A stretch of DNA of 64,000 bases from Deltaproteobacteria bacterium (GTDB lineage Bacteria > Desulfobacterota > WTBG01 > CAIYCZ01 > CAIRTM01): the NCBI GenBank assembly GCA_024276465.1, contig JAJRXD010000013.1:47390-111389 (forward strand), written 5' to 3'. Positions within the stretch are counted from its first letter, which is position 1, and the number at the start of each line of letters is the position of its first letter. The notes under the pieces are model-generated. The model was not told the origin of the DNA and did not search any database. It saw nothing but the letters and a program-made list of their open reading frames with translations. Positions 42,612-57,810 of the stretch are shown here, in pieces. The translations under genes and the position numbers were made by a program.

Positions 42612-42619
42612 TCAAGAAG

Positions 42620-42650
42620 ACAAAAAAGGAAATTCTTTTTTGCTTCTCAG
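42620..42650. terminator. imperfect hairpin between convergent phoR and the DUF45 gene
   Basis: gaagacaaaaaaggaaattcttttttgcttc is an inverted repeat. Confidence 0.35.
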
Positions 42651-43399
42651 ATTATGACTTTTTCCAGGCGTTGCTTACGCTTTTCCCAGTCCGGCAGAAT
42701 TCGTCCGAGAAGCTGGTAAAATTTCCTGTCATGTTGCGGACAGATCAGATGACACAGTTCATGTATAATCACATAATCAATACAGTGGATAGGTGCCTTG
42801 ACAAGTTCTGTGTTCAACATGATGTTGCCATTGCCAGAACAGCTGCCCCATCGTTTTTTTATACGGCGATAGCGCACTTGCGGTTCTGTTACGCCCATCC
42901 TCACAAAGGCTTGCAGGTAATAAGCAAGTCTTCTTGTAAGCAAATCCCTGGCATGTTCCGAATACCAATCAAGCATAAGTGCTTTGGCTTTTTCCCTTTT
43001 GTTTGGATCTGGTAACTGCATTTCAAAAAAACGACCGAGCAATCGTACTCGTGGTGTATCGCCACGTCGTGTTCTCAAACGATACTGCCGCCCCAAATAA
43101 TAATGAGTTTCACCGGAGACAAATTTTCGTTCCATAGGAAAGGACTGAAACTGCTCAAAAAAATCAAGTTGCCGGGCTATCCATGATGCCCGCTTTACAA
43201 GTCGCTGCTGAACAACTTCCAGCTCATATCCTGCAGGTGTTTTTGCCACGATTTTAAGGTCTGGGTACACTGTAATGGAAAGACGTTTGCGCTCGCTCCA
43301 CATAACATCCACAGCGAACTGTCGTCGTCCAAAACTTATTTTTATTTTTTCGCTTTTCACGCCAGTCACGGTTTCCTGATCCTGGCAATATCCAGACAC
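42647..43399 (-). CDS. DUF45/YgjP-like (WLM/M48-like) zinc metallohydrolase
   Basis: 250 aa. HELCHL HExxH motif. The family commonly trails hsdR in Type I RM loci. Confidence 0.75.
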   Translation of the reverse strand: MSGYCQDQETVTGVKSEKIKISFGRRQFAVDVMWSERKRLSITVYPDLKIVAKTPAGYELEVVQQRLVKRASWIARQLDFFEQFQSFPMERKFVSGETHYYLGRQYRLRTRRGDTPRVRLLGRFFEMQLPDPNKREKAKALMLDWYSEHARDLLTRRLAYYLQAFVRMGVTEPQVRYRRIKKRWGSCSGNGNIMLNTELVKAPIHCIDYVIIHELCHLICPQHDRKFYQLLGRILPDWEKRKQRLEKVII

Positions 43400-46300
43400 T
43401 GTTCCATTATCGCATCCATCTCCTCAAACGTAATTTCAATACCTTCTCTGTCTTTAAAGTCAAAAAGAAGGTCTTCGATATCATTCCTCATACGATTTTG
43501 TGTGTCCATATCACTATCCCAGCTAACAATACGGTTTCGTTCAATGACTTCATCTATAGCCAGCGCAACATCGGCAAGAACATCTTCGAAATCATCCCGG
43601 CCGTTATCCAATCGCCCGATGATTTCCTTAAGAGAACCAAAATAGGCCTTGGCAACATCATGGCTCTTGAGTTTTTCCGGAATTCGGTCTCCAGTACGGT
43701 TACGCACTGCGTTCATAATCTCCGTAACTTTCCTGAGATACTCATTTGCCTTAATCCGTTCTTCCCTGAAAGCCGCGATAGCAGCAATCAGGAGCTCTGA
43801 GAACCGTTTATAGAAAGCCGGGTCTTCCTGCATGCGCTCATGGATTGTTCGGGCTGTACGATGGGCAATTGTGTCGGCTTTGGCGGCCGCGTTCGGCAGT
43901 TTTTCCACTTCCCGGGCAAAGGCATCGGCATCAAAGATGTTAACCAGAGAGGTGATTTTTTCCACCTCACCGGTGCCGACATGCGTATCCAGCAGTTTTT
44001 GAATCTTAGGTTCGTATTCGCTAAAATCCACGACTTCTGCATATCGTTTCCTCACCGCCGTGCGCAGCTTGGAGAAAAACTTCAGGTCCGCCCGATAACG
44101 ACTCAACTTTTCCGGATCGGTTTCCTCTAAAAACTTTACGCTGGACAGTGCAATACCAAGCGTTTTTGAAAATGCCGATAAACGTTCATAAAACCTGGTC
44201 CGCAGCCCCACATCCGCCAGCGCCAGCTCGTAGGCTTCCTCATCCTGCTTGTTCTTGACCTCTTTAAATGTATCCCACAGGAGAGAATGCTTCTGAGGAA
44301 GTGTTGATGTCTCCACACTCACATCGGTGAGAATATTCTCAATATCTCCGGAATCAAACTCTGATAACGTGCTGTAAAGGTCCAGGGCGTGGTCGAGGTT
44401 TTCCAGGACCCCGCGATAATCGATGATATATCCGAAATCTTTGCTATTGCTCAGCCGGTTGACCCTGGCGATGGCTTGCAGCAGGGTATGGTCCTTCAGT
44501 TTCCGCATCAGGTAAAGAATGGTATTTCGGGGCGCGTCGAATCCAACGAGCAACTTATCTACCACAATAATTATTTCGGGATGTTCCGCGTTTTTGAAGG
44601 CATTGATAATCTGTTTGTTGTACTCCCGTTCGCTGCCGTATTTGCTGATGATCGTTTTCCAGAACCGATGCACGGCCAGTTTGTTTTCTTCATACAGGTC
44701 CTCTTCACCTTCCCGTTCGTCGGGACCCGAGATCAGCACTTCGCATGACACCATGGCGAATTCATCCAGATATTTTTTGTAGAGTAACGCGGCAGCCTTG
44801 TCCTGCGTCACCATTTGCCCCTTAAACCCTGTTCCTTGCCAGTTGTCACGAAAGTGCTCGCTGATATCCCAGGCAATGGCCATAACCTTCTGCGCCGCCT
44901 TGTTCAATTGGTCAGTGGTTGCGAATTTTTTTTTCAGGTCTGCAGATTGTTCATCGCTCAAGTTGGTTGTGATTCGCTCGAACCAGGCGTCGATACCATT
45001 GGAGTCTACGTGCTGTTCAACGTGTCTGCCCTCATATAAAAGGGGAACAACCGCCTTATCAGCCACCGCCCGGTCGATGGTATAGGTATCAATCAGGCCG
45101 CCGAATTTTTCGACCGTGTTTTTGTCCTTCTTCATCACCGGCGTCCCGGTGAAACCGATGTAACAGGCGTTCGGTAATACCCGACGCATTTTGGCATGGC
45201 GCGGGCCGTACTGGCCGCGATGGCCTTCATCTATCAGAACAAAAATATCGGGATCATCGTTGCGCACAACGTGCCGACCGACAGCCGCCTCAAATTTGTC
45301 GATGATCGTTGTTACAATGCGCTGTTTATTGCCTTTCAGCATCTGCGACAGGTGCTTGCCGGTTCCGGCCTGCTCAACTTCCTTGCCGCAATGGTGGAAG
45401 GTTCTGTATATCTGGTCATCAAGATCAACCCGGTCGGTCACCAGGACGATTTTGTAGTCGGTAATTTCAGGGCACAGGGCGATGGACTTGGCAAGCAGTA
45501 CCATGGTCAAGGACTTGCCGCTGCCCTGGGTGTGCCAGACCACGCCGCCCCGCCGTCTGCCGTTTTGTTCGCGATTCCCGATGCGGTCCATAATTTTTCT
45601 GACGGCAAAGTATTGCTGATACCGTGCGATCTTCTTGACACCGGCATCAAACAGAATAAAGCGATAGGTCAATTCAAGGAGCCGTTCAGGACGGCACAAT
45701 GCATAAAGTGCTCGATCCTGCTCAGTCACCTGTCTTTTAAGAGTGCCGTAAGCGGTCGGTTTTTCCCGTACCATCCACTCATTGTCAGTGAACAGCCTGT
45801 CCACCTGATTTTCAGTCAGGGGAATGTTTACCAATTCTTTCAAGGGCGGATGACCATCCGCCCCTACAGTTTCGATATTGTCTTCCCGCCATGCAGACCA
45901 GAATTTCAAAGGCGTTCCCGTAGTTGCGTATTTGGCCTCATTCTTTGACAACACCAAAAGGAGCTGAGAATAGATAAACAGATGAGGAATTTCGTCATGT
46001 TTCTGGTTGCGGATCTGCTGGGATATGGCCTGCGCAAGCGACTCCTTGATGTGCGGCGATTTACATTCGATCACGCAAAAGGGAATACCATTTACAAAGA
46101 GTACTATATCCGGTCTGCGGGTCTGGTGACTGCCGGCCCGCTCAACGGTAAATTCTTCCGTGACATGAAAGATGTTGTTGTCCGGATGTTCCCAGTCGAT
46201 ATAATGCAGGGTAAAACTCTTGATATCGCCGTCCACTGACTGCTGCAGGCTTTTGCCCAGGCACAACAGGTCATAAATTTTCTCATTGGTACGCACCAGT

Positions 46301-46563
46301 CCGTCAAAGGGAATCTCTTTGAGTGCCTGCAGGGCGCTCAGGATATTGCCCTCGGTAAACGGCAGCTCTCTTCCCTTGAATCTGACCCGGTTATTTTTCC
46401 GCAGCCAGTCAGCAAGAATTCCCTCCAGGAGTACGCCCCCCAGCCTGCCGCTCCGAAGGTCAAGAGCCTCTTTTGGTGTCAGATATTGCCATCCCAGATT
46501 CTGAAGCAGGTGCAGGGCAGGGAGCTGAGAAATGGCGTCTTCGTTTAAAACTGGCGCCCTCAT
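43366..46563 (-). CDS. hsdR: Type I restriction enzyme R subunit
   Basis: 1065 aa. HsdR N-terminal nuclease region and DEAD/DEAH helicase motifs (GSGKS, DEGHRGQ). Confidence 0.95.
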   Translation of the reverse strand: MRAPVLNEDAISQLPALHLLQNLGWQYLTPKEALDLRSGRLGGVLLEGILADWLRKNNRVRFKGRELPFTEGNILSALQALKEIPFDGLVRTNEKIYDLLCLGKSLQQSVDGDIKSFTLHYIDWEHPDNNIFHVTEEFTVERAGSHQTRRPDIVLFVNGIPFCVIECKSPHIKESLAQAISQQIRNQKHDEIPHLFIYSQLLLVLSKNEAKYATTGTPLKFWSAWREDNIETVGADGHPPLKELVNIPLTENQVDRLFTDNEWMVREKPTAYGTLKRQVTEQDRALYALCRPERLLELTYRFILFDAGVKKIARYQQYFAVRKIMDRIGNREQNGRRRGGVVWHTQGSGKSLTMVLLAKSIALCPEITDYKIVLVTDRVDLDDQIYRTFHHCGKEVEQAGTGKHLSQMLKGNKQRIVTTIIDKFEAAVGRHVVRNDDPDIFVLIDEGHRGQYGPRHAKMRRVLPNACYIGFTGTPVMKKDKNTVEKFGGLIDTYTIDRAVADKAVVPLLYEGRHVEQHVDSNGIDAWFERITTNLSDEQSADLKKKFATTDQLNKAAQKVMAIAWDISEHFRDNWQGTGFKGQMVTQDKAAALLYKKYLDEFAMVSCEVLISGPDEREGEEDLYEENKLAVHRFWKTIISKYGSEREYNKQIINAFKNAEHPEIIIVVDKLLVGFDAPRNTILYLMRKLKDHTLLQAIARVNRLSNSKDFGYIIDYRGVLENLDHALDLYSTLSEFDSGDIENILTDVSVETSTLPQKHSLLWDTFKEVKNKQDEEAYELALADVGLRTRFYERLSAFSKTLGIALSSVKFLEETDPEKLSRYRADLKFFSKLRTAVRKRYAEVVDFSEYEPKIQKLLDTHVGTGEVEKITSLVNIFDADAFAREVEKLPNAAAKADTIAHRTARTIHERMQEDPAFYKRFSELLIAAIAAFREERIKANEYLRKVTEIMNAVRNRTGDRIPEKLKSHDVAKAYFGSLKEIIGRLDNGRDDFEDVLADVALAIDEVIERNRIVSWDSDMDTQNRMRNDIEDLLFDFKDREGIEITFEEMDAIMEQCLDIARIRKP

Positions 46564-48095
46564 CGGTTTTTCTCCTGTTCAAGTAGTTGCTGTCCCTTTA
46601 TCGTCAGCCGATATTTCTGCTTGCTGCTTGTTGGCTTGTCAGGAATGGTCATTTCAATAAACGCAGCCTCGATAAGATGATTCAATACTTGCTGCCTGAA
46701 CTTGGTGCGATCTTTTCGTCCTGTAATGGACATAAGCTCAAGCAATGTACTTTCCCCCTTGCATTTATTGAGTATTTCAACTTGGTGCCGACTTAGTGCC
46801 GACTTAGTGCCAACTTGTGTATCCTGCAGCCATTTCAGAGATTCAGCAAAAACAGGATGGATAAATAATTCTACCAGAAAATAAGTCCTTTCGTCATCCG
46901 TATGGAATATAGGCGCAGGAGAACCATTGTCCCTAATCGCCCTTAACATTTTTGGAATGCCGGTTCCTCGCCCCTCGGTCATTTCAAGCTCCTTGAGGAA
47001 CTCCCCGACCCGGCGGTTACGGTATCGACGGGACAGAAAACGGAATTCTTGCATGTCTTTTTTCCGGATGGATCGGTCAGGCCCAGGAAAGCTGGAAATG
47101 GTTATACGATCCGGCAAAATGCGCACCTCCATAGGCTCCCTGATTTCATAAGAACGGTGATACACAGCGTTACAGAGGGCTTCTTCAATGGCGGCAAACG
47201 GATAGTTGAAAAAACGGTCGGCTTCTGCACGGTCAGGGTGCTTGATGATCTTTTCCTCTATCACCGTCGAGCGGATATGAGCAAGTGCATCCTGCAACAT
47301 AACGTGGAGCGGCCCAGTGAAAATCTTTTCAGTGAAAAAGTCCGCCCCGGGACCTTCAGGAAAATGCACTACATCAATCTGTGTTTGAGGGAAAAATTTG
47401 GAGGGATTGTTGTTAAAGAACATGAGGCCGACATTCCTGGGCCACACTGCTTCGTCAGGCCCGTCAGCAATGTTTATCCGGCGGCAAAGCTGGACAAAAT
47501 TCATTTTTGCCGCTTCGGGAAAAAGATCGCTTTTGACCTGCTTCAGATAGGCACGCATCAGTCCCAGATCCAAATCGTCAAAAATGGCAGCCTGGTTCAT
47601 GCGGTCGTCAAAGGGAACAGTGGCAGCAAGGCTCATTAATTCCACTTCATCCTGATGCCTGGCTCGAACAGTAACTGACCCCTTACGAATATAGTAGGCA
47701 AATTCCCTCTTGCCCTTTGCCAGAGAAACCGGGGCTTTGTAGGGCCTGGTCTGACCTCCTATGGCCCAGAGCACCAGGATGTGTTTTTCGCCAATTTTAC
47801 ATGGAGCTATAATCGGGTGATAATAAGGCACCATCCGGTAGCCAAACTCCACGATTTCTTTCTGGATGGCGTCAAGTTCCCCGGCTGGCATCCCTTGTGG
47901 CGGCAAAACAGGCCGGCCATTATCTTCTTCCACTCCGATGATGATGTATCCACCGCCAAGGTTATGAAAATCATTGGCAAAAGCACACATGGTGTGCAGC
48001 ACCTTTTCCGGGTTCCAGCCGGCCTTGAACTCCAGCCGTTCCCATTCCACGGTCCGGGCGGTGAGAAGGTCGTTTATGTTAATTGGGAGGTTCAT
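46560..48095 (-). CDS. AlbA_2 (Schlafen-like DNA-binding) and HATPase_c_4 domain ATP-binding protein
   Basis: N-terminal AlbA_2-type domain (EFKAGWNPEKVLHTMCAFANDFHNLGGGYIIIGV). Probable start MNLPININ at 48095; the ORF track starts at a GTG at 48131. Confidence 0.65.
   Translation of the reverse strand: MNLPININDLLTARTVEWERLEFKAGWNPEKVLHTMCAFANDFHNLGGGYIIIGVEEDNGRPVLPPQGMPAGELDAIQKEIVEFGYRMVPYYHPIIAPCKIGEKHILVLWAIGGQTRPYKAPVSLAKGKREFAYYIRKGSVTVRARHQDEVELMSLAATVPFDDRMNQAAIFDDLDLGLMRAYLKQVKSDLFPEAAKMNFVQLCRRINIADGPDEAVWPRNVGLMFFNNNPSKFFPQTQIDVVHFPEGPGADFFTEKIFTGPLHVMLQDALAHIRSTVIEEKIIKHPDRAEADRFFNYPFAAIEEALCNAVYHRSYEIREPMEVRILPDRITISSFPGPDRSIRKKDMQEFRFLSRRYRNRRVGEFLKELEMTEGRGTGIPKMLRAIRDNGSPAPIFHTDDERTYFLVELFIHPVFAESLKWLQDTQVGTKSALSRHQVEILNKCKGESTLLELMSITGRKDRTKFRQQVLNHLIEAAFIEMTIPDKPTSSKQKYRLTIKGQQLLEQEKNR
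46785..46817. repeat. 11-bp tandem repeat, 3 copies, inside the AlbA_2 gene
   Basis: gtgccgactta gtgccgactta gtgccaacttg. Confidence 0.6.
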
Positions 48096-48105
48096 ATTTT
48101 CACCT

Positions 48106-48897
48106 TTAATTTCCGGTTTCAGGGCAGACACGCAGGTCTGCCCCTACAACGGCAGGGTTTTCCCGGTCGTGTTCCCATTTGGCCGGATTATCAATGATGT
48201 ATTGGCGAAGGCGGTTTAATTCGTTTTCATTGCGGACAATATGTTCCCAATAATTGCGTTGCCATAATTTGCCGTCAAATCGTGGCCAACCGCATTGTTT
48301 GACACCACGGATATATTCATTGGTTGTTATGGTTTTAAACCATTGAACCACCGCCCGTAGGGGCGCACCTGTGTGTGCGCCCGTTGTTTCGTGTGCGTCC
48401 GGTTCGGGTTCGCCTGGTTCCATGTGTTCGTCCGTTTTGTGGTTGTCCGAATCGTGGTTGTCCCCTATGTGTTCCCGCGGTTTTGTAGGGGCAATCCTGC
48501 GTGATTGCCCATTGTTCCGTGATCGCACATCACTAGGGCAGACACGCAGGTCTGTTTCAGGGCAGACACGCAGGTCTGCCCCTACATTGACAACAACACC
48601 GTGAAAATGATTCGGCATAACAATATATTCATCACATCGAATATCCGGGAATTTGTTTTCTAATTCCTGATACCATTTCTTCACCATCCGTCCCGGATCA
48701 TTCAATACCATTTCACCATCCACAATTTTACCAAACATACATTCCCGATTCTGTGTGCATATTGTCACAAAATATGCCCCTGATTGCGAATAATCATATC
48801 CCCGCAAACGGATAGACCGACGGTTTCGTTCCCGCCGTAGGGGCAACCCCCTGTGGTTGCCCACATCCAATTCTGTATCCGAATCCCGTTTAATCAT
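48106..48897 (-). CDS. REP-associated tyrosine transposase (RAYT, IS200/IS605 TnpA-like HUH enzyme) with REP palindromes inside the ORF
   Basis: HUH motif MPNHFHGVV and Tyr motif LWQRNYWEHIVRNE...YIIDNPAKW. The spacing between the two motifs is about 57 aa longer than canonical because of a REP-containing in-frame insert. Confidence 0.8.
   Translation of the reverse strand: MIKRDSDTELDVGNHRGLPLRRERNRRSIRLRGYDYSQSGAYFVTICTQNRECMFGKIVDGEMVLNDPGRMVKKWYQELENKFPDIRCDEYIVMPNHFHGVVVNVGADLRVCPETDLRVCPSDVRSRNNGQSRRIAPTKPREHIGDNHDSDNHKTDEHMEPGEPEPDAHETTGAHTGAPLRAVVQWFKTITTNEYIRGVKQCGWPRFDGKLWQRNYWEHIVRNENELNRLRQYIIDNPAKWEHDRENPAVVGADLRVCPETGN
48122..48147 (-). repeat. REP element (GTAG-headed palindrome) overlapping the RAYT stop
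   Basis: Minus strand reads gtaggggcagacctgcgtgtctgccc. Confidence 0.75.
48357..48382 (+). repeat. REP element variant inside the RAYT ORF
   Basis: gtaggggcgcacctgtgtgtgcgccc. Confidence 0.7.
48485..48510 (+). repeat. REP element variant inside the RAYT ORF
   Basis: gtaggggcaatcctgcgtgattgccc. Confidence 0.7.
48536..48585 (-). repeat. tandem REP pair: a truncated copy at 48536-48554 and a full copy at 48560-48585
   Basis: gggcagacacgcaggtctg tttca gggcagacacgcaggtctgcccctac. Confidence 0.75.
48837..48862 (+). repeat. REP element variant in the 5' part of the RAYT ORF
   Basis: gtaggggcaaccccctgtggttgccc. Confidence 0.7.
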
Positions 48898-49946
48898 ATT
48901 TCTACCCTGATTTCCCCTGTCAGCAGTTTCTGCATCAGGCCCTTCTTTTGTTCCAATAATTTCTCCTGTTTCTTTTTCAATAATTCAATTTCCCGGTCGC
49001 AGGTGGAAAGAGTCCCTGCTATACGTTTTTGTTCGTCTGTGGTAGGCAAGTGAACCGTGGTCTTCATCACAGCGGATGTTGTTAGACCAAACCGCGTGGC
49101 TCCATTAGCATGTGTCGTGAAATGCTTTCGTGACCGTGCGCTACCCAATTCCTTTGACAGAAAAACGGGGTTGACTTCTACGGAGTTCGGGCGGATGAGT
49201 GCGAGGTGATAACCGCATACAACATTCTCTAATTTCTCTGTGACAACTGCCGGAATGCCTATATCATCGGGTGTCTCTGAATCTTTCGTAATCATGACGT
49301 CACCCTGTCGCAGTAAGAACCTTTCAATCTCGGAAGCCGAAGCCGTTGCTGGCATGAAGTTCAGGTCAACGGTGATATAGTCATTCGCATAGACATCCAT
49401 GTAGTTGCAGAGCCTGACGGGTATTTCATCGGTATGAGTCTTCTTGTCCACGCCGCTGAAGGAAACGTGAGCGATGCTGCCAATGGGCCTCTCTTCCCAC
49501 CCCTCCGGCAGTTCGCCTCTTTTCTCAACCGGTTTGCCAAACTCAGGGAACCGCATCCGGCCGGAGAGCAGTTGCTGCATCAGCCCTTTTTTGAGTAATT
49601 CAGCGAAATCTCGATCTACGAGAGCAGGAACAGCAATGTCATCGGCTGTTTCGGAATCCTTTGTAATGAGGACGTCACCCTTTTGCAGAGAATAGCGTTC
49701 AATCTCTCGTGGCATTGCCGTAGCGGACATGAATGAGATGGCGTCTGAAATATGGGCGTTGTAGTAAACGTCCGTATAATTGCACAGGCGTACTGCCTGC
49801 TCTCCCTTATGTGATTTTTTGTCGACGTTGCTGAAACGTACATCAGCGACATCCTCAAGCCGCACACATTCCCATTCCTCCGGTATCCACCCAACTTTGG
49901 AATCCTTATATCCGAGCCTGTTTTCGTTCCGCTTGCTCATGCGCAT
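48894..49946 (-). CDS. hsdS: Type I restriction-modification specificity subunit with two similar target-recognition domains
   Basis: 350 aa. Duplicated TRD blocks (VRLCNYTDVY...ITKDSETADDIAVPALV and VRLCNYMDVY...ITKDSETPDDIGIPAVV). Conserved coiled-coil spacer regions. Confidence 0.85.
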   Translation of the reverse strand: MRMSKRNENRLGYKDSKVGWIPEEWECVRLEDVADVRFSNVDKKSHKGEQAVRLCNYTDVYYNAHISDAISFMSATAMPREIERYSLQKGDVLITKDSETADDIAVPALVDRDFAELLKKGLMQQLLSGRMRFPEFGKPVEKRGELPEGWEERPIGSIAHVSFSGVDKKTHTDEIPVRLCNYMDVYANDYITVDLNFMPATASASEIERFLLRQGDVMITKDSETPDDIGIPAVVTEKLENVVCGYHLALIRPNSVEVNPVFLSKELGSARSRKHFTTHANGATRFGLTTSAVMKTTVHLPTTDEQKRIAGTLSTCDREIELLKKKQEKLLEQKKGLMQKLLTGEIRVEI

Positions 49947-50698
49947 TTCTCCCGCTTGGCCTGTTCGCGTGCCATCTCATCGAGTTCTTTCTTCAGAGCT
50001 TTTGGGAGAAGGCTCCAGTCAAAATCTTTCATCTCGCTCTCTTTCAGGCTGTAAAGAACATTGGTGGCATCCCTGATGAATCGTTCTTTGGACTGCTGTT
50101 TCAATAAATCAAGCATGGATGCTCCGTGACATCTCCGCAGTATCTTCCCGGAACCGCAGGGACAAACGTGATGCCCCCGATATGTCCCATCGGCCATCAG
50201 TTTTAATAATGACAGCACGATCTGAACATCATCGGTGTTAAACAGGTCTTGATAGTATTCCCGGATACCATTTGCCCCATGAGAGAGTTCACCGAAAGGC
50301 ATTTCGCCATGTTTCTCAAAGTATGCATATCCATACAGGTACTCGACAACCAGCGTTTCCACAAAGGTGACAAGGCGGGGATCGGCCTTGAATCGCCTCC
50401 ATACTTCAACCGGGGCTCCAAGGCACAGAGTCCGATCACCATACTGATGGAAATTTGGTGGGATTCGACCGCCGGTCTCCTGAACCGTGGGTGGAGAATC
50501 CGGGTAGTCACGGGGCAGCATGATCAGAATAGAGAATACGTCCGTGATTGTCACTTTTTGAAACGTCGCAGAGAACGACAGCATCCCCCGAATCACCCAC
50601 CGGCAGGGGGCGTCTTCGTATAGTTTCAGCCCGGAGGAATATTTCCCTGACAATTCCTCGAACTGCTGCCGGATCAGTGCTTCTTTGCCGTTATTCAA
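49937..50698 (-). CDS. E2/UBC-like protein with C-terminal SEC-C-like zinc motif (CBASS Cap2-like, E2-only)
   Basis: HPN-like loop and catalytic Cys (IPPNFHQYGDRTLCLGAP). C-terminal HVCPCGSGKILRRCHG. 4-nt overlap with the nucleotidyltransferase gene. Confidence 0.55.
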   Translation of the reverse strand: MNNGKEALIRQQFEELSGKYSSGLKLYEDAPCRWVIRGMLSFSATFQKVTITDVFSILIMLPRDYPDSPPTVQETGGRIPPNFHQYGDRTLCLGAPVEVWRRFKADPRLVTFVETLVVEYLYGYAYFEKHGEMPFGELSHGANGIREYYQDLFNTDDVQIVLSLLKLMADGTYRGHHVCPCGSGKILRRCHGASMLDLLKQQSKERFIRDATNVLYSLKESEMKDFDWSLLPKALKKELDEMAREQAKREKCA

Positions 50699-51858
50699 GA
50701 TTCACGCCCCCACGGCTTGCTGGGCTTGGTAATACTGATACTTGGGGCTACGGCTGCAACGGCACTTACAGAGCTTGAACGAGTTGGAAAGGCCCTTGAA
50801 TCTGCCTCATTGACAATGCGGTCGCCAAACCGAGGTTTGAGGTTCTCGATCATGTCATCGAGGTCCCCAGCGCGAAGGGCGGCATCCAGATCGACACGAA
50901 CCTGTTGTATCCACTCGCGGAACTTGACTTCCAACTCTGGGTGTTTCCTCCATTTGTCGGCAAAGTTCTCGGGATGATCGGTCACATCAACCGGGTTTGC
51001 AACGAGGGCGTTACCCTGTTCATCCCGTCCAATCAGACCGGGCATCTTGTTGACGATATTCTGCAGCGCATCAAGAAGATCGGCTTCGTTGTTGTATGCA
51101 TGACCGGCAAGTGTCGTAATGATGATTGAAATAGGCCGATTACCCAAGTCGTCTTTAAACATGATGTCCCTGTGCCGCTTGAGAATCTGGATGGATCGTT
51201 GCAGCGGGGTTTTGACCTTGTATTCCGGGACATCCTCAATGCTTGCTCGAAGCGATTCGGCCAGCAACATGCGTTTGGCATCAAACTGCACGCGCGTGCG
51301 CTCCTTGAACCACTCGGCATAGCCGACGGGATTACTCCGTTGCCAATTGTATAGTTCCCGGTCGGTTATAAGAATTGCGCTTTGGGCAAGGTTCGCACCG
51401 ATCTCACGGGCTATTCCGTTGATATCGTCATCGGGAATTGCCGGCAGAATGTCCATGTGGAAACGGGCTGAGTCGGCATATTGCAGTGTCCAGCAGCGTT
51501 TGCCCTCTTTGAGCATCTTGCGATACCGTTCATTTTCCTTCAGGCGGTCCCCGACCATATCCTTAAGTTGCTTCTGGGTGACGTTTTCTTTTCTTAGAGC
51601 CTTCAATTCACAAACGAGGTCGATGTCATATTCGTCCTTATCGTTTACAGGTTTGATCATCGTGCCCAGACGAAATGAACCTTGTGGATAGATTTGGGGA
51701 TCATACTCAGCTATGGGCGAATCATCCTTATTCAGCCAGTCACCAACCGCCTCGTAATGCTTTACAGCCGCTTCGTACTGTGCATCGGAGATATCCAGTG
51801 ATTCCGCCAATTCCTGAAACAACTGCCTGAGTTCATTATGTCGTTCCTGTGTCATCAC
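50695..51858 (-). CDS. cGAS/DncV-like nucleotidyltransferase (CD-NTase)
   Basis: 387 aa. Pol-beta NTase signature QGSFRLGTMIKPVNDKDEYDIDLV (GS...DxD) and a downstream acidic residue (FHMDILP). Flanked by a patatin effector and an E2-like gene. Confidence 0.7.
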   Translation of the reverse strand: MMTQERHNELRQLFQELAESLDISDAQYEAAVKHYEAVGDWLNKDDSPIAEYDPQIYPQGSFRLGTMIKPVNDKDEYDIDLVCELKALRKENVTQKQLKDMVGDRLKENERYRKMLKEGKRCWTLQYADSARFHMDILPAIPDDDINGIAREIGANLAQSAILITDRELYNWQRSNPVGYAEWFKERTRVQFDAKRMLLAESLRASIEDVPEYKVKTPLQRSIQILKRHRDIMFKDDLGNRPISIIITTLAGHAYNNEADLLDALQNIVNKMPGLIGRDEQGNALVANPVDVTDHPENFADKWRKHPELEVKFREWIQQVRVDLDAALRAGDLDDMIENLKPRFGDRIVNEADSRAFPTRSSSVSAVAAVAPSISITKPSKPWGRES

Positions 51859-52823
51859 ATACCTCCGTTGTTGAGGTCCAAAAAAGTCTTGATCATTTCC
51901 GCCTTATGCGAGAAATCCCTATCAGCACGAGACTTCAAATCGCGCAGGTCAGCCGGATCGTCCAAAGGAAGCGCAGAGTCTGAGTCAAAATTGAGTCTTA
52001 AAATCTGCTCTGGTCTCAGGAGAAGACCTGTCATGTTGTTGGCTGTTTCAGATTGAAGATTTAGCAGCATTGAAATGAACTTTCCATGCTGCCAGCGTGT
52101 TGCAAATCCCCAGCCCTGATATCGCTTCCACCATGGCCGCTTCTGTGGATAAAAGCTACGGCTAACTCCTGTGCCGAGGGTAAACACCTTAAGGGAGTCA
52201 AGGTCCTTGCCAAGCCGCTTTTTGGCGTCAATTACTGCAACAAGTGAAGGACTGTTTGCCCACAACCCCCCATCGGCCAGAAGGTACTCACCTACATTTT
52301 GAGGATCGAAATAGGTGGGGGCTGAGCAGGATGCCATAACGGCATCTCGGATAAGAACGTTGCGGTCACGGACAAACCCTTTATCATAGCCCGACTTGAA
52401 CACATGAACACATCCGTTCCCGATGTCAGTTGCCGGAATAATGAGTGGCGTTGTTACTTGCCCAAGTCGGCGGTCAGCAAAAACCTCCTGCAGAATGTCA
52501 CGAAGGTATTGGTTTCTGTATCGACTCCTAATAAAACCAAAGCGTGGCATAAACCGGCGAGGAAATATCTGAGCACCGTGTTCTTCGTAGAATTCCACGA
52601 TGTCACACGCGCGCATTTCGCACGCAAGTCCTGCCGCAACTATTGAACCGGTACTCGTACCTGCAATCAATTGAAAATGATTTCGCAAATCCAAGTCGTA
52701 TTCTTGCTCAATCCGGGCAAGAATATGGGCGGCATAGACGCCACGAAATCCACCACCGTCAACGGAAAGAATACGGAAGGAGTTGTCTGCAGAACTTGAC
52801 AGAACAGGGTTCGATTTGCTCAT
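51855..52823 (-). CDS. capV: patatin-like phospholipase (CapV-like CBASS effector)
   Basis: 322 aa. Oxyanion hole DGGGFRG, nucleophile elbow GTSTG, catalytic dyad Asp in ADGG. Confidence 0.85.
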   Translation of the reverse strand: MSKSNPVLSSSADNSFRILSVDGGGFRGVYAAHILARIEQEYDLDLRNHFQLIAGTSTGSIVAAGLACEMRACDIVEFYEEHGAQIFPRRFMPRFGFIRSRYRNQYLRDILQEVFADRRLGQVTTPLIIPATDIGNGCVHVFKSGYDKGFVRDRNVLIRDAVMASCSAPTYFDPQNVGEYLLADGGLWANSPSLVAVIDAKKRLGKDLDSLKVFTLGTGVSRSFYPQKRPWWKRYQGWGFATRWQHGKFISMLLNLQSETANNMTGLLLRPEQILRLNFDSDSALPLDDPADLRDLKSRADRDFSHKAEMIKTFLDLNNGGM

Positions 52824-54340
52824 AGACCCAGTTCCTTTAAATAACCGCCGAGTTTTTTCTGAGTACTTGCAAGCTCCGTCTCGATCTCTTCAATTTCCTT
52901 TTGAACGGCAGAAATGTCGATGTCCTCTTCTTCCTCAAAGGTATCCACATAGCGGGGGATATTCAGATTGAATTCGGCTTCCTGAATCTCTTCCAGCGTT
53001 GCCAGGTGGGAGTATTTTTCTACTTCCTCGAATTTGCGGAACGTAGAGATGATCTTTTCGATATCTTCATCCCGCAGGCGGTTCTGCTTTTTCTCGTCTT
53101 TAAACTCGCGGCTGGCGTCTATAAAAAGAACATGCTTATCACGTTTGTTCTTTGCCGTTTTCCAGGGTTTCCTGCCCTTGTTGAAAACAAGAATGGCCGC
53201 CGGTATCCCGGTGCCGTAGAAAAGCTGGGCGGGTAGACCAATAACCGCTTCAAGGATATTGTCCTCAATGAACGCCTTCCGGATAACGCCTTCCGCTCCA
53301 CCACGAAACAGAACCCCGTGAGGCACAATGACGCCCACCTTGCCTTCACCCTCCAGGGTAATTTCAACCATGTGGCTGATAAAAGCGTAATCGCCCCGGC
53401 TTTTTGGCGGGACCCCGCGCCAGAAGCGGTTGAACCGGTCGTGACTTGCATTTTCCTGGCCCCACTTATCCAGAGAAAACGGCGGATTGGCAACCACGAC
53501 ATTGAAGCGCATCAGTTCGTCGTTCTCTATCAGCCTGGGGTTGTTGATGGTGTCGCACCATTCAATGCGGGCAGAATCCATTGAATGCAAAAACATGTTC
53601 ATTCGGCACAGGGACCAGGTGGAACCGTTGGACTCCTGGCCGGACAGGGCAAAATTCGGACTCCCGACTTCCTGACCGACTTTGATGAGAAGCGATCCTG
53701 ACCCGCAGGCCGGGTCACAGATACGGTCTCCGTCTTTGGGATTAAGCAATTTGGCAAGCAGCGTGGAAACTTCGGCTGGAGTGTAGAACTCGCCGGCTTT
53801 TTTCCCGGCCCCGGCCGCAAAACGGGAAATCAGGTATTCATACACGTCACCGATTACGTCACGATTCCCAATGCGTGAGGGGCGCAAATCAAGACGCTCA
53901 TCGGCAAAGTCCTCCAGAAGATTCTTCAGGCGGCGGTTGCGCTCCTTGGTCTGACCCAAGGCAGGTTCGCTGTTGAAATCAATATTGCGAAAAACATTTT
54001 CGAGTTTCGACTTGTTGGCATCCTCGATTTTTTCAAGGGCAATATTGATGATCTCACCGATATTGGGCTCGTCGCGTCTGCTGTAGAGGGAATTAAAGTT
54101 TGATTCCGGAGGCACCACAAAGCGTTCCCGGGCCAGTGCTCTTTCCACTCGGGCAGCATCACCATTATATTTTTTCTCGTATTCGGCTCTTTTGTCCTTC
54201 CACAGGTCGCTCATGTACTTGATGAAGAGCATGGTAAGGATGTAATTCTTGTATTCCGACGGATCGACTGCGCCCCTGAAGGTGTCGCAGGCCCGCCAGA
54301 CAACATCATTGATTTCTTTTTGGGAAACGTGAGGACTCAT
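52820..54340 (-). CDS. hsdM: Type I restriction-modification N6-adenine DNA methyltransferase subunit
   Basis: 506 aa. HsdM N-terminal domain. SAM-binding motif DPACGSGS. Catalytic NPPF (VVANPPFS). Confidence 0.95.
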   Translation of the reverse strand: MSPHVSQKEINDVVWRACDTFRGAVDPSEYKNYILTMLFIKYMSDLWKDKRAEYEKKYNGDAARVERALARERFVVPPESNFNSLYSRRDEPNIGEIINIALEKIEDANKSKLENVFRNIDFNSEPALGQTKERNRRLKNLLEDFADERLDLRPSRIGNRDVIGDVYEYLISRFAAGAGKKAGEFYTPAEVSTLLAKLLNPKDGDRICDPACGSGSLLIKVGQEVGSPNFALSGQESNGSTWSLCRMNMFLHSMDSARIEWCDTINNPRLIENDELMRFNVVVANPPFSLDKWGQENASHDRFNRFWRGVPPKSRGDYAFISHMVEITLEGEGKVGVIVPHGVLFRGGAEGVIRKAFIEDNILEAVIGLPAQLFYGTGIPAAILVFNKGRKPWKTAKNKRDKHVLFIDASREFKDEKKQNRLRDEDIEKIISTFRKFEEVEKYSHLATLEEIQEAEFNLNIPRYVDTFEEEEDIDISAVQKEIEEIETELASTQKKLGGYLKELGL

Positions 54341-54343
54341 TTT

Positions 54344-54928
54344 TTATCTCTCCTGTTCTTGAATTGCATTTAAGCAGGCAGCCTTGACAAGACGTGATCG
54401 CGTCTGCGCAAGCCTTTCCAGAAGGAATTGTTCGCGACTGGCAAGCGCTACGCTTAGCACAATTTTTTTCTGAATGGAAACCGGCGGAATCATGACTTGC
54501 AGACGGGAAAGCGTGTGCTTGGAGACAAATGAGATCCCCGTTCCCCGGGCCTGTGCCCTCAGCCAGGCTTGCGCTTTTGACTGATTCAGCCACCAAGCCA
54601 GATATTGTGGAATAATCTCATTCCCTTTCACGCGAAGGATATAGAAAGAACCTGAAGCAAGTGTGTTCTTCAAATCAGCTTCAATATAACCGGCAAAATG
54701 AGCTATTCCACGAGCCTGAAAAAGTATATCGCCTTTGCAAACAGAATAAATTTCAGGCTTTCGCTCAGGGAAAAATGCAGTAAGATTATCCGGCATTAAA
54801 CAATGAAGACAATCGAAATCTTTGGTTTGAATAAGATAATGCGTACCTTTTACATTTTCCTTAATGCTGGCTTTTGCCTGATATCCTGCCTGAATGCTGG
54901 CAACTGTTTTTAAAAAAGTGCTTGTCAT
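54344..54928 (-). CDS. truncated or half-size Type I specificity subunit (single TRD)
   Basis: 194 aa. One TRD plus a conserved C-terminal helical region (IPPVSIQKKIV...LERLAQTRSRL). Lies immediately upstream of hsdM. Confidence 0.6.
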   Translation of the reverse strand: MTSTFLKTVASIQAGYQAKASIKENVKGTHYLIQTKDFDCLHCLMPDNLTAFFPERKPEIYSVCKGDILFQARGIAHFAGYIEADLKNTLASGSFYILRVKGNEIIPQYLAWWLNQSKAQAWLRAQARGTGISFVSKHTLSRLQVMIPPVSIQKKIVLSVALASREQFLLERLAQTRSRLVKAACLNAIQEQER

Positions 54929-55303
54929 TAAATTAATACCACAACAATGTCAGTATTAGCCCTACTTATTGCTAAATATAGCATAAGCTTGATTTAATGT
55001 CAAGAAAAATAATAAGTAATAAATCTACTAACTTGTTTCCTTCCGGTTTTTCGCACCTGTCAACATCAACCTGAGGAAGGAAAAACAAACAAACTGCAGA
55101 ATGTAACCTATTGATATTGACTCAAAAAATACAGGAAAAGGTTTCACTACATAAACAACATTTTTTCTCCTGTCCCTAAATTAACCCAAAATTAACAAAA
55201 CCCTTATCAGGGGTTAACAGAACTAACCTAATTAATACAACTAAGCCATGGTGCTTAAAATGGAAATTTAATTTAATTAATTACAAACACGGAAGGTAAA
55301 CTT

Positions 55304-56335: not shown

Positions 56336-56508
56336 TGTCCAAAACAAGGTATTAACATATTGTTTTTGCATGTGTTTCAAGGTTGAGATTGCTTCGGTCG
56401 TACTTCCCTCGCAATGACATTAACTGTTTGATTTTGCTTTGCATTGTCATTGCGAGCGAAGCGTGGCAATCTCGTTCTTGGACAACAATGAAAAAGATTC
56501 TATAATGT
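56321..56508. repeat. 170-bp palindromic insertion at the pstS/pstC junction bounded by 18-bp direct repeats
   Basis: DR aaaaagattctataatgt at 56321-56338 and 56491-56508. Internal composite IR 56385-56473 (gagattgc...ctcgcaatgaca / tgtcattgcgag...gcaatctc). Confidence 0.65.
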
Positions 56509-57461: not shown

Positions 57462-57810
57462 TGGCAACACCTGAACAGAGTGATTTTACCTGTGAGAGTT
57501 TTCCCCACAACAGGTTTTCACTCATTCTCGGCAGACATCCATGTCTGCCTGTGAGGTAAGCATTACGTTTCACCATCCAGGTGAAAATAGTGTAATGCTT
57601 AAACCCGTTCAAACCTGCTGTGGGGAAAGTTCTTTGCAAAACCATATCCTTAAGAACCGGCTTTATTGTGTGTCGAAATCAACTGTTCAGGTGGATAGAC
57701 TGAAGATTGAAGACTGTTGGATTACTTCAGCCTTTAACCTGAACACCTGGGTAGTTACCATTGAATCACAGAAACAAAACTACTCAAACATTGTGTGACA
57801 GGGCAGTAGC

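What the first reader, a model, noticed from the sequence alone, without database searches (positions are those of the whole stretch)
49937..52823. A CapV / CD-NTase / E2-only CBASS cassette sits inside a Type I R-M operon between hsdM and hsdS
Three consecutive minus-strand genes with 4-nt overlaps encode a patatin phospholipase (DGGGFRG, GTSTG, DGG), a cGAS/DncV-like nucleotidyltransferase (GSFRLGT...DEYDIDLV) and an E2/UBC-like protein (PPNF...TLCLG). That is the gene order and content of a short type II CBASS (capV-cdn-cap2) lacking the E1 and JAB components. The cassette is not a neighbour of the R-M system: it lies between hsdM (52820-54340) and hsdS (48894-49946). Start/stop overlaps continue through the whole string: halfS, hsdM, capV, cdn, E2, hsdS, RAYT, AlbA_2, hsdR, DUF45. 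This implies co-transcription and translational coupling of an abortive-infection system with restriction-modification. The arrangement is analogous to prrC embedded in EcoprrI, but with a cyclic-nucleotide signalling module. It raises the possibility of regulatory or physical cross-talk between R-M and CBASS. Such cross-talk is hypothetical.
Basis: partly seen in the sequence, partly recalled or inferred. Interest (0 to 1): 0.88.

Follow-up and report, generated by a model that had tools for sequence, protein, structure and literature searches.

The report
CBASS cassette inside Type I restriction operon
A three-gene CBASS abortive-infection system really does sit between the methylase and specificity genes of a Type I restriction-modification operon, and the same arrangement recurs in at least 13 other uncultured bacteria, but it is best read as swappable cargo in a known kind of insertion slot, not as proof that the two systems talk to each other.

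Summary
capV (51855-52823), a CdnG-like CD-NTase (50695-51858) and a stand-alone E2 (49937-50698) form a textbook E2-only (type II short) CBASS. It lies on the minus strand between hsdM and hsdS, with ATGA-type overlaps. The 12.3-kb island has about 50% GC against about 40% in the flanks and is inserted between phoR and pstS.

The new result is that this is not a one-off. Among 33 informative, non-redundant loci of this E2 subfamily, 10 are fully embedded in the same R-M backbone (halfS-hsdM-[slot 1]-hsdS-[slot 2]-hsdR-YgjP) and 3 are probably embedded. A further 3 lie beside another R-M and 17 stand alone.

R-M and CBASS trees recover the same groups. Effectors are swapped in place (CapV or SAVED). 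One close backbone (HsdM 93% identical) lacks CBASS, and plasmid versions carry RhuM in that slot. One relative keeps an hsdS 5' duplication scar beside the cassette.

Embedding of defence genes in Type I R-M operons is already documented (PrrC, rlo genes, TgvAB, DarTG2, Payne 2024), so this is a new member of a known kind. Functional cross-talk is untested and the indirect evidence leans against obligate coupling. The window's HsdS also carries an internal deletion of about 95 residues.

The parts
42612..55303 (.). Horizontally acquired defence island inserted between phoR (ends 42611) and pstS (starts 55304)
   Evidence: GC is 0.46-0.53 inside against 0.37-0.42 in the flanks. Housekeeping neighbours have no relatives at >=90% identity, while the island's HsdM has 13 in other assemblies. 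No flanking direct repeats were found.
54975..55003 (-). Sigma-70-like promoter candidate for the whole string (TTGACA-17-TATATT with an extended -10 TG)
   Evidence: It matches 11 of 12 positions and is the best site in 13.4 kb. It lies 47 nt upstream of the halfS start. This is a consensus match only and has not been shown to function.
54344..54928 (-). Half-size HsdS (single TRD, 194 aa)
   Evidence: Methylase_S 2e-08; PADLOC Specificity_I 2.4e-16. The gene is present upstream of hsdM in every locus of this R-M family.
52820..54340 (-). hsdM, Type I N6-adenine methyltransferase
   Evidence: N6_Mtase 2.3e-105 and HsdM_N 3.9e-29. Motifs DPACGSG at 209 and NPPF at 285. It is 88-96% identical to HsdM of L001, L002 and L088.
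51855..52823 (-). capV, patatin-like phospholipase effector of CBASS
   Evidence: Patatin 1.7e-30; PADLOC effector 7.8e-89. The best solved relatives are cGAMP-activated CBASS phospholipases, 9wn0/9kh7 at 6.5e-37. Motifs GGGFRG, GTSTG and DGG are present. Its ATG overlaps the hsdM TGA.
50695..51858 (-). CD-NTase (CdnG-like cGAS/DncV-family cyclase) with a conserved C-terminal KPWG tail
   Evidence: SMODS 5.8e-16, DncV-like NTase 5.8e-13, PADLOC cyclase 1.3e-139. PDB 9woo at 3.4e-70 and SmCdnG 8hsb at 9.7e-39. G60-S61, D78, D80, D136 and the tail ending in W383-G384 are invariant in relatives.
49937..50698 (-). Stand-alone CBASS E2 (UBC fold, catalytic Cys92) with a C-terminal SEC-C-type zinc knuckle and helical tail
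   Evidence: PADLOC E2 1.1e-82. The AlphaFold2 model has pLDDT 93.2, and the top 50 Foldseek PDB matches are all UBC/UEV/UFC1 folds. C92, C179, C181, C190 and H191 are invariant across 40 homologs.
48894..49946 (-). hsdS (350 aa) with an in-frame internal deletion of about 95 residues
   Evidence: Methylase_S covers only residues 147-330. Alignment with five relatives (401-446 aa) shows that the C-terminal half of TRD1 and the first conserved helix are missing. The first ~80 nt travel with the CBASS block in L088.
48106..48897 (-). RAYT-like Y1 (HUH) transposase-family gene invaded by REP-like palindromes (slot 2 cargo)
   Evidence: Y1_Tnp is weak at 1e-3, below Pfam's cut-off. HFH at 97 and YWEH at 216. 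Five copies of the GGGCAGACACGCAGGTCTGCCCC-type palindrome lie at 48116-48863. Homologous genes occupy the same slot in L088 and L009.
46560..48131 (-). AlbA_2/Schlafen-like protein with HATPase_c_4 and Fic-like C-terminal wHTH domains (slot 2 cargo)
   Evidence: Fic-like_C 6.5e-15, HATPase_c_4 9.7e-12, SLFN_AlbA_2 3.3e-11. It is 86.6% identical at the DNA level to the gene in the same slot of the CBASS-less locus L095.
43366..46563 (-). hsdR, Type I restriction endonuclease/translocase
   Evidence: SWI2_SNF2 1.2e-82, HSDR_N 1.6e-38, PADLOC REase_I 1.3e-229. Motifs PD...ECK at 151, GSGKS at 347, DEGH at 445, QAIARVNR at 696.
42647..43399 (-). YgjP/DUF45 (SprT-like) zinc metalloprotease that ends the operon in this R-M family
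   Evidence: YgjP-like 1.2e-57. HELCH at 213. It is present downstream of hsdR in all full-length relatives.

Best explanation
The region is a complete E2-only (type II short) CBASS operon, capV-cdn-E2. It is carried as cargo in the hsdM|hsdS slot of a modular Type I R-M family whose backbone is halfS-hsdM-[slot 1]-hsdS-[slot 2]-hsdR-YgjP-like protease.

Shown by sequence:
- All catalytic motifs are intact.
- The cassette is fused to hsdM and hsdS by ATGA-type overlaps and has no intergenic space of its own.
- The composite recurs and broadly co-diverges with the R-M genes in at least 13 other lineages.
- The effector can be swapped in place.
- Cargo is present or absent among close backbones.

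Inferred:
- The ten genes are read from the one promoter upstream of halfS, so CBASS expression rides on R-M expression.
- By analogy with the Serratia E2-CBASS, the E2 trims the CD-NTase tail after Gly384 and conjugates the enzyme to prime it. On infection the CD-NTase makes a cyclic nucleotide, probably cGAMP-like. That nucleotide activates CapV to degrade membrane phospholipids and abort the infection.
- R-M and CBASS most likely act as independent layers. Restriction acts first, and cell suicide follows for phages that escape restriction.
- The two are kept together because linkage gives co-transfer and co-expression, not because one needs the other.
- Cassette turnover probably uses the conserved hsdM 3' end and hsdS 5' end as portable homology arms.
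For: - Identity of the parts. UBC fold of E2. Conserved KPWG tail and E2 Cys92.
- Mechanism of E2-CBASS: PMC12948482 and bioRxiv 10.1101/2022.05.25.493364.
- Packing and single promoter-like site.
- Recurrence: same architecture in L001 (Nitrospirae MAG) and L002 (Desulfobulbaceae MAG). Also in L016, L023, L025, L034, L057, L064, L004/5 and L009, and in L088/89 and L091/92.
- Census: 10 embedded, 3 probable, 3 near another R-M and 17 alone, out of 33 informative non-redundant loci.
- Similar conservation of R-M and CBASS genes against L001: hsdM 88%, capV 92.5%, cdn 84%, E2 81%, hsdR 82%.
- hsdM/hsdR and cdn/E2 trees recover the same groups.
- Cargo behaviour: L095 (HsdM 93%) has RhuM but no CBASS, with homology ending exactly at the hsdM stop codon. 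Plasmids pGW6_2 and pEJ01 have RhuM in slot 1 and Shedu/HAD in slot 2. L088 and L091 have RhuM (with or without Fic) plus CBASS in slot 1. CapV is replaced by a SAVED effector in L002 at the same 4-nt junction.
- Recombination scar: a 44-nt hsdS 5' copy upstream of capV in L088, local score 66 against a shuffle maximum of 26.
- Independence: the same CBASS subfamily stands alone in defence islands and an ICE. Serratia E2-CBASS protects E. coli on its own (PMC12948482).
Against: - No transcript, methylation or phage data exist for this locus.
- The promoter scan is a sigma-70 consensus match in an unknown, uncultured host.
- The long co-divergence, and the fact that about 40% of informative loci of this E2 subfamily sit in one R-M family, is more linkage than simple defence-island clustering usually gives. 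A functional dependency therefore cannot be excluded.
- The sample is biased: it holds the 80 best E2 matches plus hand-picked look-ups.
- The trees are neighbour-joining on few taxa, so a single ancient capture cannot be separated rigorously from repeated exchange.
- The window's HsdS is internally deleted, so 'layered defence' may not hold in this particular genome.
Confidence: 0.7

Rival explanations
1. Functionally integrated composite. The CBASS module is wired to the R-M complex in a PrrC/EcoprrI-like guard arrangement. In this reading the CD-NTase/E2 pair is held in check or triggered by HsdM/HsdS/HsdR, for example being released when phage anti-restriction proteins disable the enzyme, or activated by restriction products. 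Embedding would then be required for function or stoichiometry.
For: - The embedding persists and broadly co-diverges across HsdM identities of 69-96%.
- ATGA junctions to hsdM are conserved with both CapV and SAVED effectors, in 6 of 8 direct junctions.
- CBASS always abuts hsdS, even when RhuM or Fic share the slot.
- Relatives of this CBASS also sit next to unrelated M/S systems in L003, L093, L030 and a Vibrio gigantis plasmid.
- Precedent exists in PrrC-EcoprrI (own knowledge). TgvAB protects 10-100 fold better inside its R-M cluster (PMC11411939).
Against: - 17 of 33 informative relatives have no R-M gene within the available flanks, including ones 72-77% identical in E2.
- The slot accepts unrelated cargo, and the backbone exists without CBASS.
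- A characterised E2-CBASS works without any R-M (PMC12948482).
- No domain in CapV, CD-NTase or E2 suggests Hsd binding.
- The window's own HsdS is damaged.
Confidence: 0.15
2. Decaying relic. In this genome the island is a partly inactivated passenger, so the tidy operon structure no longer reflects a working two-layer defence.
For: - HsdS has lost about 95 residues that are conserved in five of five relatives.
- The RAYT-like gene is riddled with REP-like palindromes.
- The island is a recent foreign acquisition.
Against: - All ten ORFs are open, and every catalytic motif checked is intact.
- The half-S gene could supply specificity as a homodimer (established for half-size HsdS proteins; own knowledge).
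- The HsdS deletion is in frame.
- The CBASS genes are 84-92% identical to those of L001 and L088 with no frameshifts.
Confidence: 0.1
3. Assembly artefact. The CBASS genes were joined to R-M genes by chimeric metagenome assembly.
For: The source appears to be an uncultured-organism contig (117.6 kb, NCBI) that could not be retrieved by exact look-up.
Against: The same junctions occur in more than ten independent assemblies from different projects and assemblers. The genes overlap in frame-consistent ATGA junctions.
Confidence: 0.02

Closest known systems
E2-CBASS (type II short CBASS) of Serratia marcescens: SmCdnG, SmE2 and an effector (PMC12948482; bioRxiv 10.1101/2022.05.25.493364)
   Same: It has a CdnG-like CD-NTase (8hsb at 9.7e-39), a stand-alone E2 with a catalytic cysteine, and no E1 or JAB. 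The CD-NTase tail ends in a glycine followed by a few residues, which is the substrate for E2 processing and conjugation. It has an abortive-infection effector.
   Different: The window's E2 is 253 aa against about 160 aa for SmE2, and it carries a SEC-C-type zinc knuckle and helical tail. It is too divergent from SmE2 to be found by sequence search of the PDB. The operon is embedded in an R-M operon instead of standing alone. Nothing here has been tested biochemically.
PrrC anticodon nuclease within the EcoprrI Type I R-M locus (own knowledge; named in Payne 2024 as almost exclusively embedded in Type I R-M)
   Same: It is an abortive-infection module sitting between hsd genes of a Type I R-M operon on the same strand.
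   Different: prrC is a single gene in the hsdS|hsdR slot, and it is physically masked by the R-M enzyme and released by a phage peptide. Here a three-gene signalling system sits in the hsdM|hsdS slot. There is no evidence of dependence on the R-M, and many stand-alone relatives exist.
TgvAB in the Vibrio cholerae VPI-2 Type I R-M cluster (PMC11411939) and DarTG2 in the EPEC RptR island (PMC12255303)
   Same: These are experimentally validated multi-gene defence systems embedded in Type I R-M operons. The authors describe the site as a probable recombination hotspot for defence cargo. They propose complementary protection.
   Different: The cargo types differ (Type IV restriction; toxin-antitoxin). 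DarTG2 lies between hsdS and hsdR (PMC12255303). The present case is CBASS between hsdM and hsdS, with evidence of long co-divergence with the backbone.
Same R-M backbone with other cargo: Methylocystis rosea pGW6_2 and Rhodobacter xanthinilyticus pEJ01
   Same: The gene order is halfS-hsdM-[slot 1]-hsdS-[slot 2]-hsdR-SprT/YgjP protease, and HsdM is 63-65% identical to the window's by tblastn.
   Different: Slot 1 holds a RhuM-family gene instead of CBASS. Slot 2 holds Shedu and/or a HAD hydrolase instead of the RAYT-like and AlbA_2 genes.
Genes embedded in Type I R-M, BREX, DISARM and Hma systems ('guilt by embedding', Payne et al. 2024, bioRxiv 10.1101/2024.01.29.577857); rlo genes of Campylobacter jejuni hsd loci (Miller 2005, cited in PMC11411939)
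   Same: This is the general phenomenon: hsd operons frequently carry nested accessory genes, and known defence systems are sometimes among them.
   Different: CBASS is not named in the main text or in the supplementary text held for that paper. No paper found in these searches describes an E2-CBASS/Type I R-M composite. A cold-seep survey only notes that CBASS is often flanked by RM genes (PMC12881386).

Membership tests
E2-CBASS (type II short CBASS) | CD-NTase with the GS loop and the DxD...D catalytic triad | tested here: met
   QGSF at 59, DID at 78-80, HMDI at 134. SMODS and DncV-like NTase hits, and PADLOC cyclase 1.3e-139. PDB 9woo at 3.4e-70 and SmCdnG at 9.7e-39.
E2-CBASS (type II short CBASS) | Adjacent cyclic-nucleotide-activated effector | tested here: met
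   CapV-type patatin with GGGFRG, GTSTG and DGG motifs. PADLOC CBASS effector 7.8e-89. Solved cGAMP-activated phospholipases match at 6.5e-37. Activation by a nucleotide is inferred, not tested.
E2-CBASS (type II short CBASS) | Stand-alone E2 with a UBC fold and catalytic cysteine, and no E1 domain or JAB peptidase | tested here: met
   PADLOC E2 1.1e-82. The model has pLDDT 93 and its top 50 PDB fold matches are all UBC/UEV/UFC1. Cys92 is invariant in 40 homologs. None of the island's ten proteins has an E1/ThiF or JAB hit.
E2-CBASS (type II short CBASS) | CD-NTase C-terminal glycine tail that E2 processes and conjugates | tested here: met
   The tail KPWG-(R/H)E(S/H) is invariant in four relatives, and the PW is aligned at the end of solved 9woo. 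This is a sequence feature only; covalent conjugation is not testable here.
E2-CBASS (type II short CBASS) | Anti-phage activity and cyclic nucleotide product | not testable with these tools
   This needs phage challenge and nucleotide analysis.
Type I restriction-modification system | HsdM N6-adenine methyltransferase with SAM-binding and NPPF motifs | tested here: met
   N6_Mtase 2.3e-105 and HsdM_N 3.9e-29. DPACGSG and NPPF present.
Type I restriction-modification system | HsdR with a PD-(D/E)xK nuclease and SF2 translocase motifs | tested here: met
   HSDR_N, SWI2_SNF2 and T1R_D3 hits, and PADLOC REase_I 1.3e-229. PD...ECK, GSGKS, DEGH and QxxxRxxR present.
Type I restriction-modification system | HsdS with two complete target-recognition domains and two conserved helices | tested here: not met
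   The window's 350-aa HsdS lacks the C-terminal half of TRD1 and the first conserved helix. Both are present in five of five relatives.
Type I restriction-modification system | An alternative functional specificity subunit (the half-size HsdS acting as a dimer) | tested here: inconclusive
   An intact 194-aa single-TRD gene lies upstream of hsdM and is conserved across the family. Whether it supplies specificity is unknown.
Type I R-M operon with embedded defence cargo | Accessory genes nested between hsd genes on the same strand | tested here: met
   capV-cdn-E2 lies between hsdM and hsdS, and the RAYT-like and AlbA_2 genes lie between hsdS and hsdR.
Type I R-M operon with embedded defence cargo | Cargo varies among homologous backbones (presence/absence and replacement) | tested here: met
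   L095 has no CBASS. RhuM, Shedu and HAD occupy the slots on plasmids. RhuM/Fic plus CBASS occur together in L088 and L091. The effector is swapped in L002.
PrrC/EcoprrI-type guarded R-M (functional coupling) | The embedded module is physically controlled by the R-M enzyme and released by phage anti-restriction | not testable with these tools
   Only indirect evidence exists, and it leans against obligate coupling: 17 of 33 informative relatives stand alone.

The most novel reading that the evidence does not exclude
The R-M/E2-CBASS composite is a single integrated two-tier immune system. CBASS signalling would be gated by the state of the Type I enzyme, as a PrrC-like guard that fires when HsdM/S/R is neutralised by anti-restriction proteins, or when restriction generates a signal. 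That would explain why the cassette has stayed translationally fused between hsdM and hsdS through deep co-divergence and effector swaps. It would also give E2-CBASS, whose trigger is unknown, a defined activating cue.
Probability: 0.12. Interest if true: 0.85.

Novelty: new member of a known kind. Interest (0 to 1): 0.45.

Why it matters
Both components are known kinds: E2-only CBASS, and Type I R-M operons that carry nested defence genes. What this adds is a concrete, recurrent and apparently long-lived pairing of the two, in one definable R-M backbone with two cargo slots.

The comparative material is already in hand. There are natural variants with CapV or SAVED effectors, variants with or without RhuM/Fic, one close backbone without CBASS, and a recombination scar.

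This gives a clean system for asking whether embedded abortive-infection modules are merely co-transferred and co-expressed with restriction, or are functionally wired to it. It also lets one ask how defence cassettes are exchanged between operons. If coupling were found, it would bear on the open question of what activates E2-CBASS. If not, the locus is a tidy but unsurprising example of modular defence-island architecture.

Tried and rejected
- Exact look-ups of the window's CD-NTase, E2 and HsdM found no record, so the source organism could not be named. Cluster look-ups only showed an NCBI contig of 117,585 bp and singleton housekeeping proteins.
- Misassembly was rejected because of the many independent assemblies.
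- No flanking direct repeats or integrase define the island ends.
- Phage carriage was not found. There were no relatives in IMG/VR viral contigs or GenBank phages.
- Plasmid searches with E2 gave only distant hits at or below 36% identity. Of the two inspected, one lies in a defence/TA region (Aliarcobacter). The other follows a Type I R-M inside a Tn7-like element (Vibrio gigantis). In both the CBASS is a neighbour of other genes, not embedded.
- Sequence search of the PDB with E2 found only weak eukaryotic UBC hits and not SmE2, so the fold was tested by modelling instead.
- Literature: no paper found describes CBASS between hsdM and hsdS. Burroughs et al. 2015 could not be read. The supplementary text held for Payne 2024 has no 'cbass' entry, but those tables were truncated when stored. 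Absence from the literature is therefore not proven.
- Single ancient capture versus repeated capture could not be settled. The backbone and cassette trees agree on groups but not on every deep branch. Non-embedded relatives are interleaved in the wider CD-NTase tree.
- I looked for an E2 length or tail feature specific to embedded copies and saw none by inspection of ORF lengths.

Full report
**1.

Profile searches identify them as follows:
- a half-size HsdS
- HsdM
- a patatin phospholipase (Patatin 1.7e-30; PADLOC CBASS effector 7.8e-89)
- a CD-NTase (SMODS 5.8e-16; DncV-like NTase 5.8e-13; PADLOC cyclase 1.3e-139)
- a CBASS E2 (PADLOC 1.1e-82; Pfam sees only a weak SEC-C motif)
- HsdS
- a weak Y1-transposase-like protein
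- an AlbA_2/Schlafen-like ATPase
- HsdR
- a YgjP/DUF45 metalloprotease

Junctions are 4-nt overlaps at hsdM/capV, capV/cdn, cdn/E2, hsdS/RAYT and AlbA2/hsdR. E2/hsdS overlaps by 10 nt from the first ATG, and it is an ATGA overlap from Met3, the start that relatives use. halfS/hsdM has a 3-nt gap, not an overlap.

One strong promoter-like site (11/12 plus an extended -10) lies upstream of halfS. Terminator-like hits inside the string are fewer than shuffles give (11 against 16.3).

The island is about 50% GC against about 40% in the flanks, and it sits between phoR and pstS.

**2. The three genes are a complete E2-only CBASS**

- **CapV** has GGGFRG, GTSTG and DGG. It matches solved cGAMP-activated CBASS phospholipases (9wn0/9kh7 at 6.5e-37; CapV 8zr9 at 3.3e-27).
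- **The CD-NTase** has QGSF, DID and HMDI. It matches a solved cGAS-like enzyme (9woo at 3.4e-70) and Serratia SmCdnG (8hsb at 9.7e-39). Its tail KPWG plus 2-3 residues is invariant among relatives. That is the feature the E2 of the Serratia system trims and conjugates (PMC12948482; bioRxiv 10.1101/2022.05.25.493364).
- **The E2** was modelled from 40 homologs (pLDDT 93.2, pTM 0.82). The top 50 Foldseek PDB matches are all UBC, UEV or UFC1 folds. Cys92 in LCLG aligns with the catalytic cysteine of eukaryotic UBC domains and is invariant. A CxCGS...CH zinc knuckle and a helical tail follow the UBC core.
- **No E1 or JAB** protein is among the island's genes.

**3. The arrangement recurs**

A GTDB scan with the E2 found three relatives.
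- L001 (Nitrospirae MAG) reads halfS-hsdM-capV-cdn-E2-hsdS-X-X-hsdR-DUF45.
- L002 (Desulfobulbaceae MAG) is the same, but with a SAVED-domain effector in place of CapV.
- L003 carries the CBASS at the end of a different M/S/STAND cluster.

Against L001, HsdM is 88% identical, CapV 92.5%, CD-NTase 84%, E2 81% and HsdR 82%. The R-M and CBASS parts are therefore about equally conserved.

A metagenome scan gave 80 more loci, and look-ups of E2 homologs gave further ones. After removing redundancy at 95% E2 identity there are 71 clusters, of which 33 have enough flank to judge:

| Context | Loci |
|---|---|
| Fully embedded between hsdM and hsdS of this backbone | 10 |
| Probably embedded (contig cut) | 3 |
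| Next to some other R-M | 3 |
| No R-M nearby | 17 |

L097 is a further probable case (hsdM-RhuM-capV, then cut). This sample is biased towards relatives of the window's E2, so the fraction applies to this subfamily only.

**4. CBASS behaves as cargo in a slot**

The same backbone on two alphaproteobacterial plasmids carries a RhuM-family gene between hsdM and hsdS. Between hsdS and hsdR it carries Shedu and/or a HAD hydrolase.

- L095, whose HsdM is 93% identical to the window's, has RhuM and no CBASS. Its DNA homology to the window stops exactly at the hsdM stop codon (52820). It resumes in the conserved middle of hsdS, in the AlbA_2 gene (86.6%) and in hsdR-DUF45.
- L088/L089 carry RhuM, Fic and CapV-cdn-E2 in the slot.
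- L091/L092 carry RhuM and SAVED-cdn-E2.

In every case CBASS abuts hsdS.

In L088 the block homologous to the window runs from the capV start to about 80 nt into hsdS, at 89.9% identity. Just upstream of capV there is a degenerate copy of the hsdS 5' end (40 of 44 nt identical; local score 66 against a shuffle maximum of 26), itself split by a REP-like palindrome. This is a duplication scar. It suggests the exchangeable unit is capV-cdn-E2 plus the start of hsdS.

**5. One capture or many**

Trees of HsdM and HsdR on one side, and CD-NTase and E2 on the other, recover the same groups: {window, L088}, {L001, L002}, L091, L016, {L023, L025}, {L034, L057}, L064. They are broadly congruent, with CBASS evolving faster (cdn 42-91% against hsdM 69-96%).

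Distances correlate (Spearman 0.48 for hsdM against cdn; 0.89 for hsdM against hsdR). The pairs are not independent, so these are descriptive only.

CBASS-less L095 is nested among CBASS-bearing backbones, which points to a loss. In the wider CD-NTase tree, stand-alone relatives are interleaved with embedded ones, which points to escapes or exchanges.

I favour an old capture followed by co-transfer, in-place effector swaps, occasional loss and occasional escape. Neighbour-joining on this sample cannot exclude repeated capture.

**6. How it most likely works**

*Shown:* intact catalytic motifs in all parts, tight packing and the single upstream promoter-like site.

*Inferred from the Serratia system:*
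1. The E2 trims the CD-NTase after Gly384 and conjugates it to prime it.
2. Infection leads to synthesis of a cGAMP-like nucleotide.
3. CapV is activated and destroys the membrane.

*Inferred from context:* the cassette is read through from hsdM, and restriction and abortive infection act as independent layers kept together by co-transfer and co-expression.

*Evidence against obligate coupling:*
- stand-alone relatives 72-77% identical in E2, in a defence island and elsewhere
- a 45%-identical relative in an ICE
- unrelated cargo in the same slot
- a characterised E2-CBASS that works alone in E. coli (PMC12948482)

*Evidence that keeps coupling alive:* the depth and tightness of the linkage, and repeated adjacency to other M/S systems. 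I put the guard model at roughly 0.12-0.15.

**7. A caveat for this genome**

The window's HsdS (350 aa) lacks the C-terminal half of TRD1 and the first conserved helix. Five of five relatives retain both. HsdM, HsdR and the half-S are intact, so the enzyme may rely on the half-S, or restriction may be impaired.

The RAYT-like gene has HUH and Tyr motifs but holds five REP-like palindromes.

**8. Comparison with what is known**

- Nested defence genes in Type I R-M operons are established. Examples are PrrC, the C. jejuni rlo genes, TgvAB (PMC11411939) and DarTG2 (PMC12255303).
- A systematic survey states that Type I R-M systems frequently contain embedded genes, including known systems (bioRxiv 10.1101/2024.01.29.577857).
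- A cold-seep study notes that CBASS is often flanked by RM genes (PMC12881386).
- I found no description of E2-CBASS between hsdM and hsdS, or of its co-divergence with a backbone. The search is incomplete, because key papers are not held and the supplementary tables are truncated.

I therefore class the finding as a new member of a known kind.

**9. Verdict**

The added value is that the composite recurs, is modular and shows a recombination scar. Cross-talk remains a hypothesis with modest odds. Interest is moderate (0.45): it is a good experimental entry point, but not a surprise to specialists in defence-island architecture.

Noticed in passing
window 48894-49946 (hsdS): HsdS carries an in-frame internal deletion of about 95 residues, removing the C-terminal half of TRD1 and the first conserved helix. 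The remaining N-terminal part of TRD1 resembles TRD2 (54% identical to TRD2 of L002), which suggests recombination between the two TRDs.
   Followed up: partly
window 48116-48863 (inside the RAYT-like ORF 48106-48897): Five REP-like palindromes (GGGCAGACACGCAGGTCTGCCCC and variants) lie inside a gene with HUH (HFH) and Tyr (YWEH) motifs. They are translated as GADLRVCPE-type peptide repeats. A related palindrome also lies in the Fic|capV gap of L088.
   Followed up: partly
window 54344-54928 and all related loci: This R-M family always carries a half-size, single-TRD hsdS upstream of hsdM in addition to a full-length hsdS downstream. One methylase may therefore have two alternative specificity subunits.
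   Followed up: no
L088 4691-4936: A degenerate copy of the hsdS 5' end (MSKRN ... ENRPGYKKTKVG), interrupted by a REP-like palindrome, lies immediately upstream of capV. The CBASS cassette is therefore bracketed by direct copies of the hsdS start.
   Followed up: yes
L002 2606-3757 compared with L001 2764-3732: Two loci with 98%-identical HsdM and 99%-identical HsdR carry different CBASS effectors (a SAVED-domain protein against CapV) at the same 4-nt junction with hsdM. This is an in-place effector swap. The N-terminal half of the SAVED protein has no Pfam match.
   Followed up: partly
L016 10835-12583 and 15334-16095: In this embedded locus a second CD-NTase, fused to an AGS_C sensor domain, lies between E2 and hsdS. 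A Fic gene lies between hsdS and hsdR.
   Followed up: partly
L001 6986-10768 and 11017-11751; L091 12021-13283; L095 9795-11051: The hsdS|hsdR slot holds large proteins with no Pfam match (1260 aa; about 420 aa) and a 23S-rRNA-IVP-like protein. These are candidate undescribed defence genes by the embedding argument.
   Followed up: no
L100 (Vibrio gigantis plasmid p1, NZ_AP025494.1 199-214 kb): The cargo of a Tn7-like element reads WYL regulator, Type I M-S-DUF4268-R, ATPase, HTH, hydrolase, then SAVED-NTase-E2. This is a cultured-organism example of a distant E2-CBASS placed directly after a Type I R-M.
   Followed up: partly
window 40201-42611 and 55304-58659: The island splits a phoBR / pstSCA phosphate regulon cluster. 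The neighbouring housekeeping proteins have no relatives at >=90% identity in the 15-billion-protein collection, so the host lineage is poorly sampled.
   Followed up: partly
window 38191-40104: A 637-aa protein has a signal-like N-terminus and many repeats of a motif of the type 'SGSG..FTV.KLNG..G..IW', like a beta-propeller or repeat surface protein. It lies just upstream of phoB.
   Followed up: no
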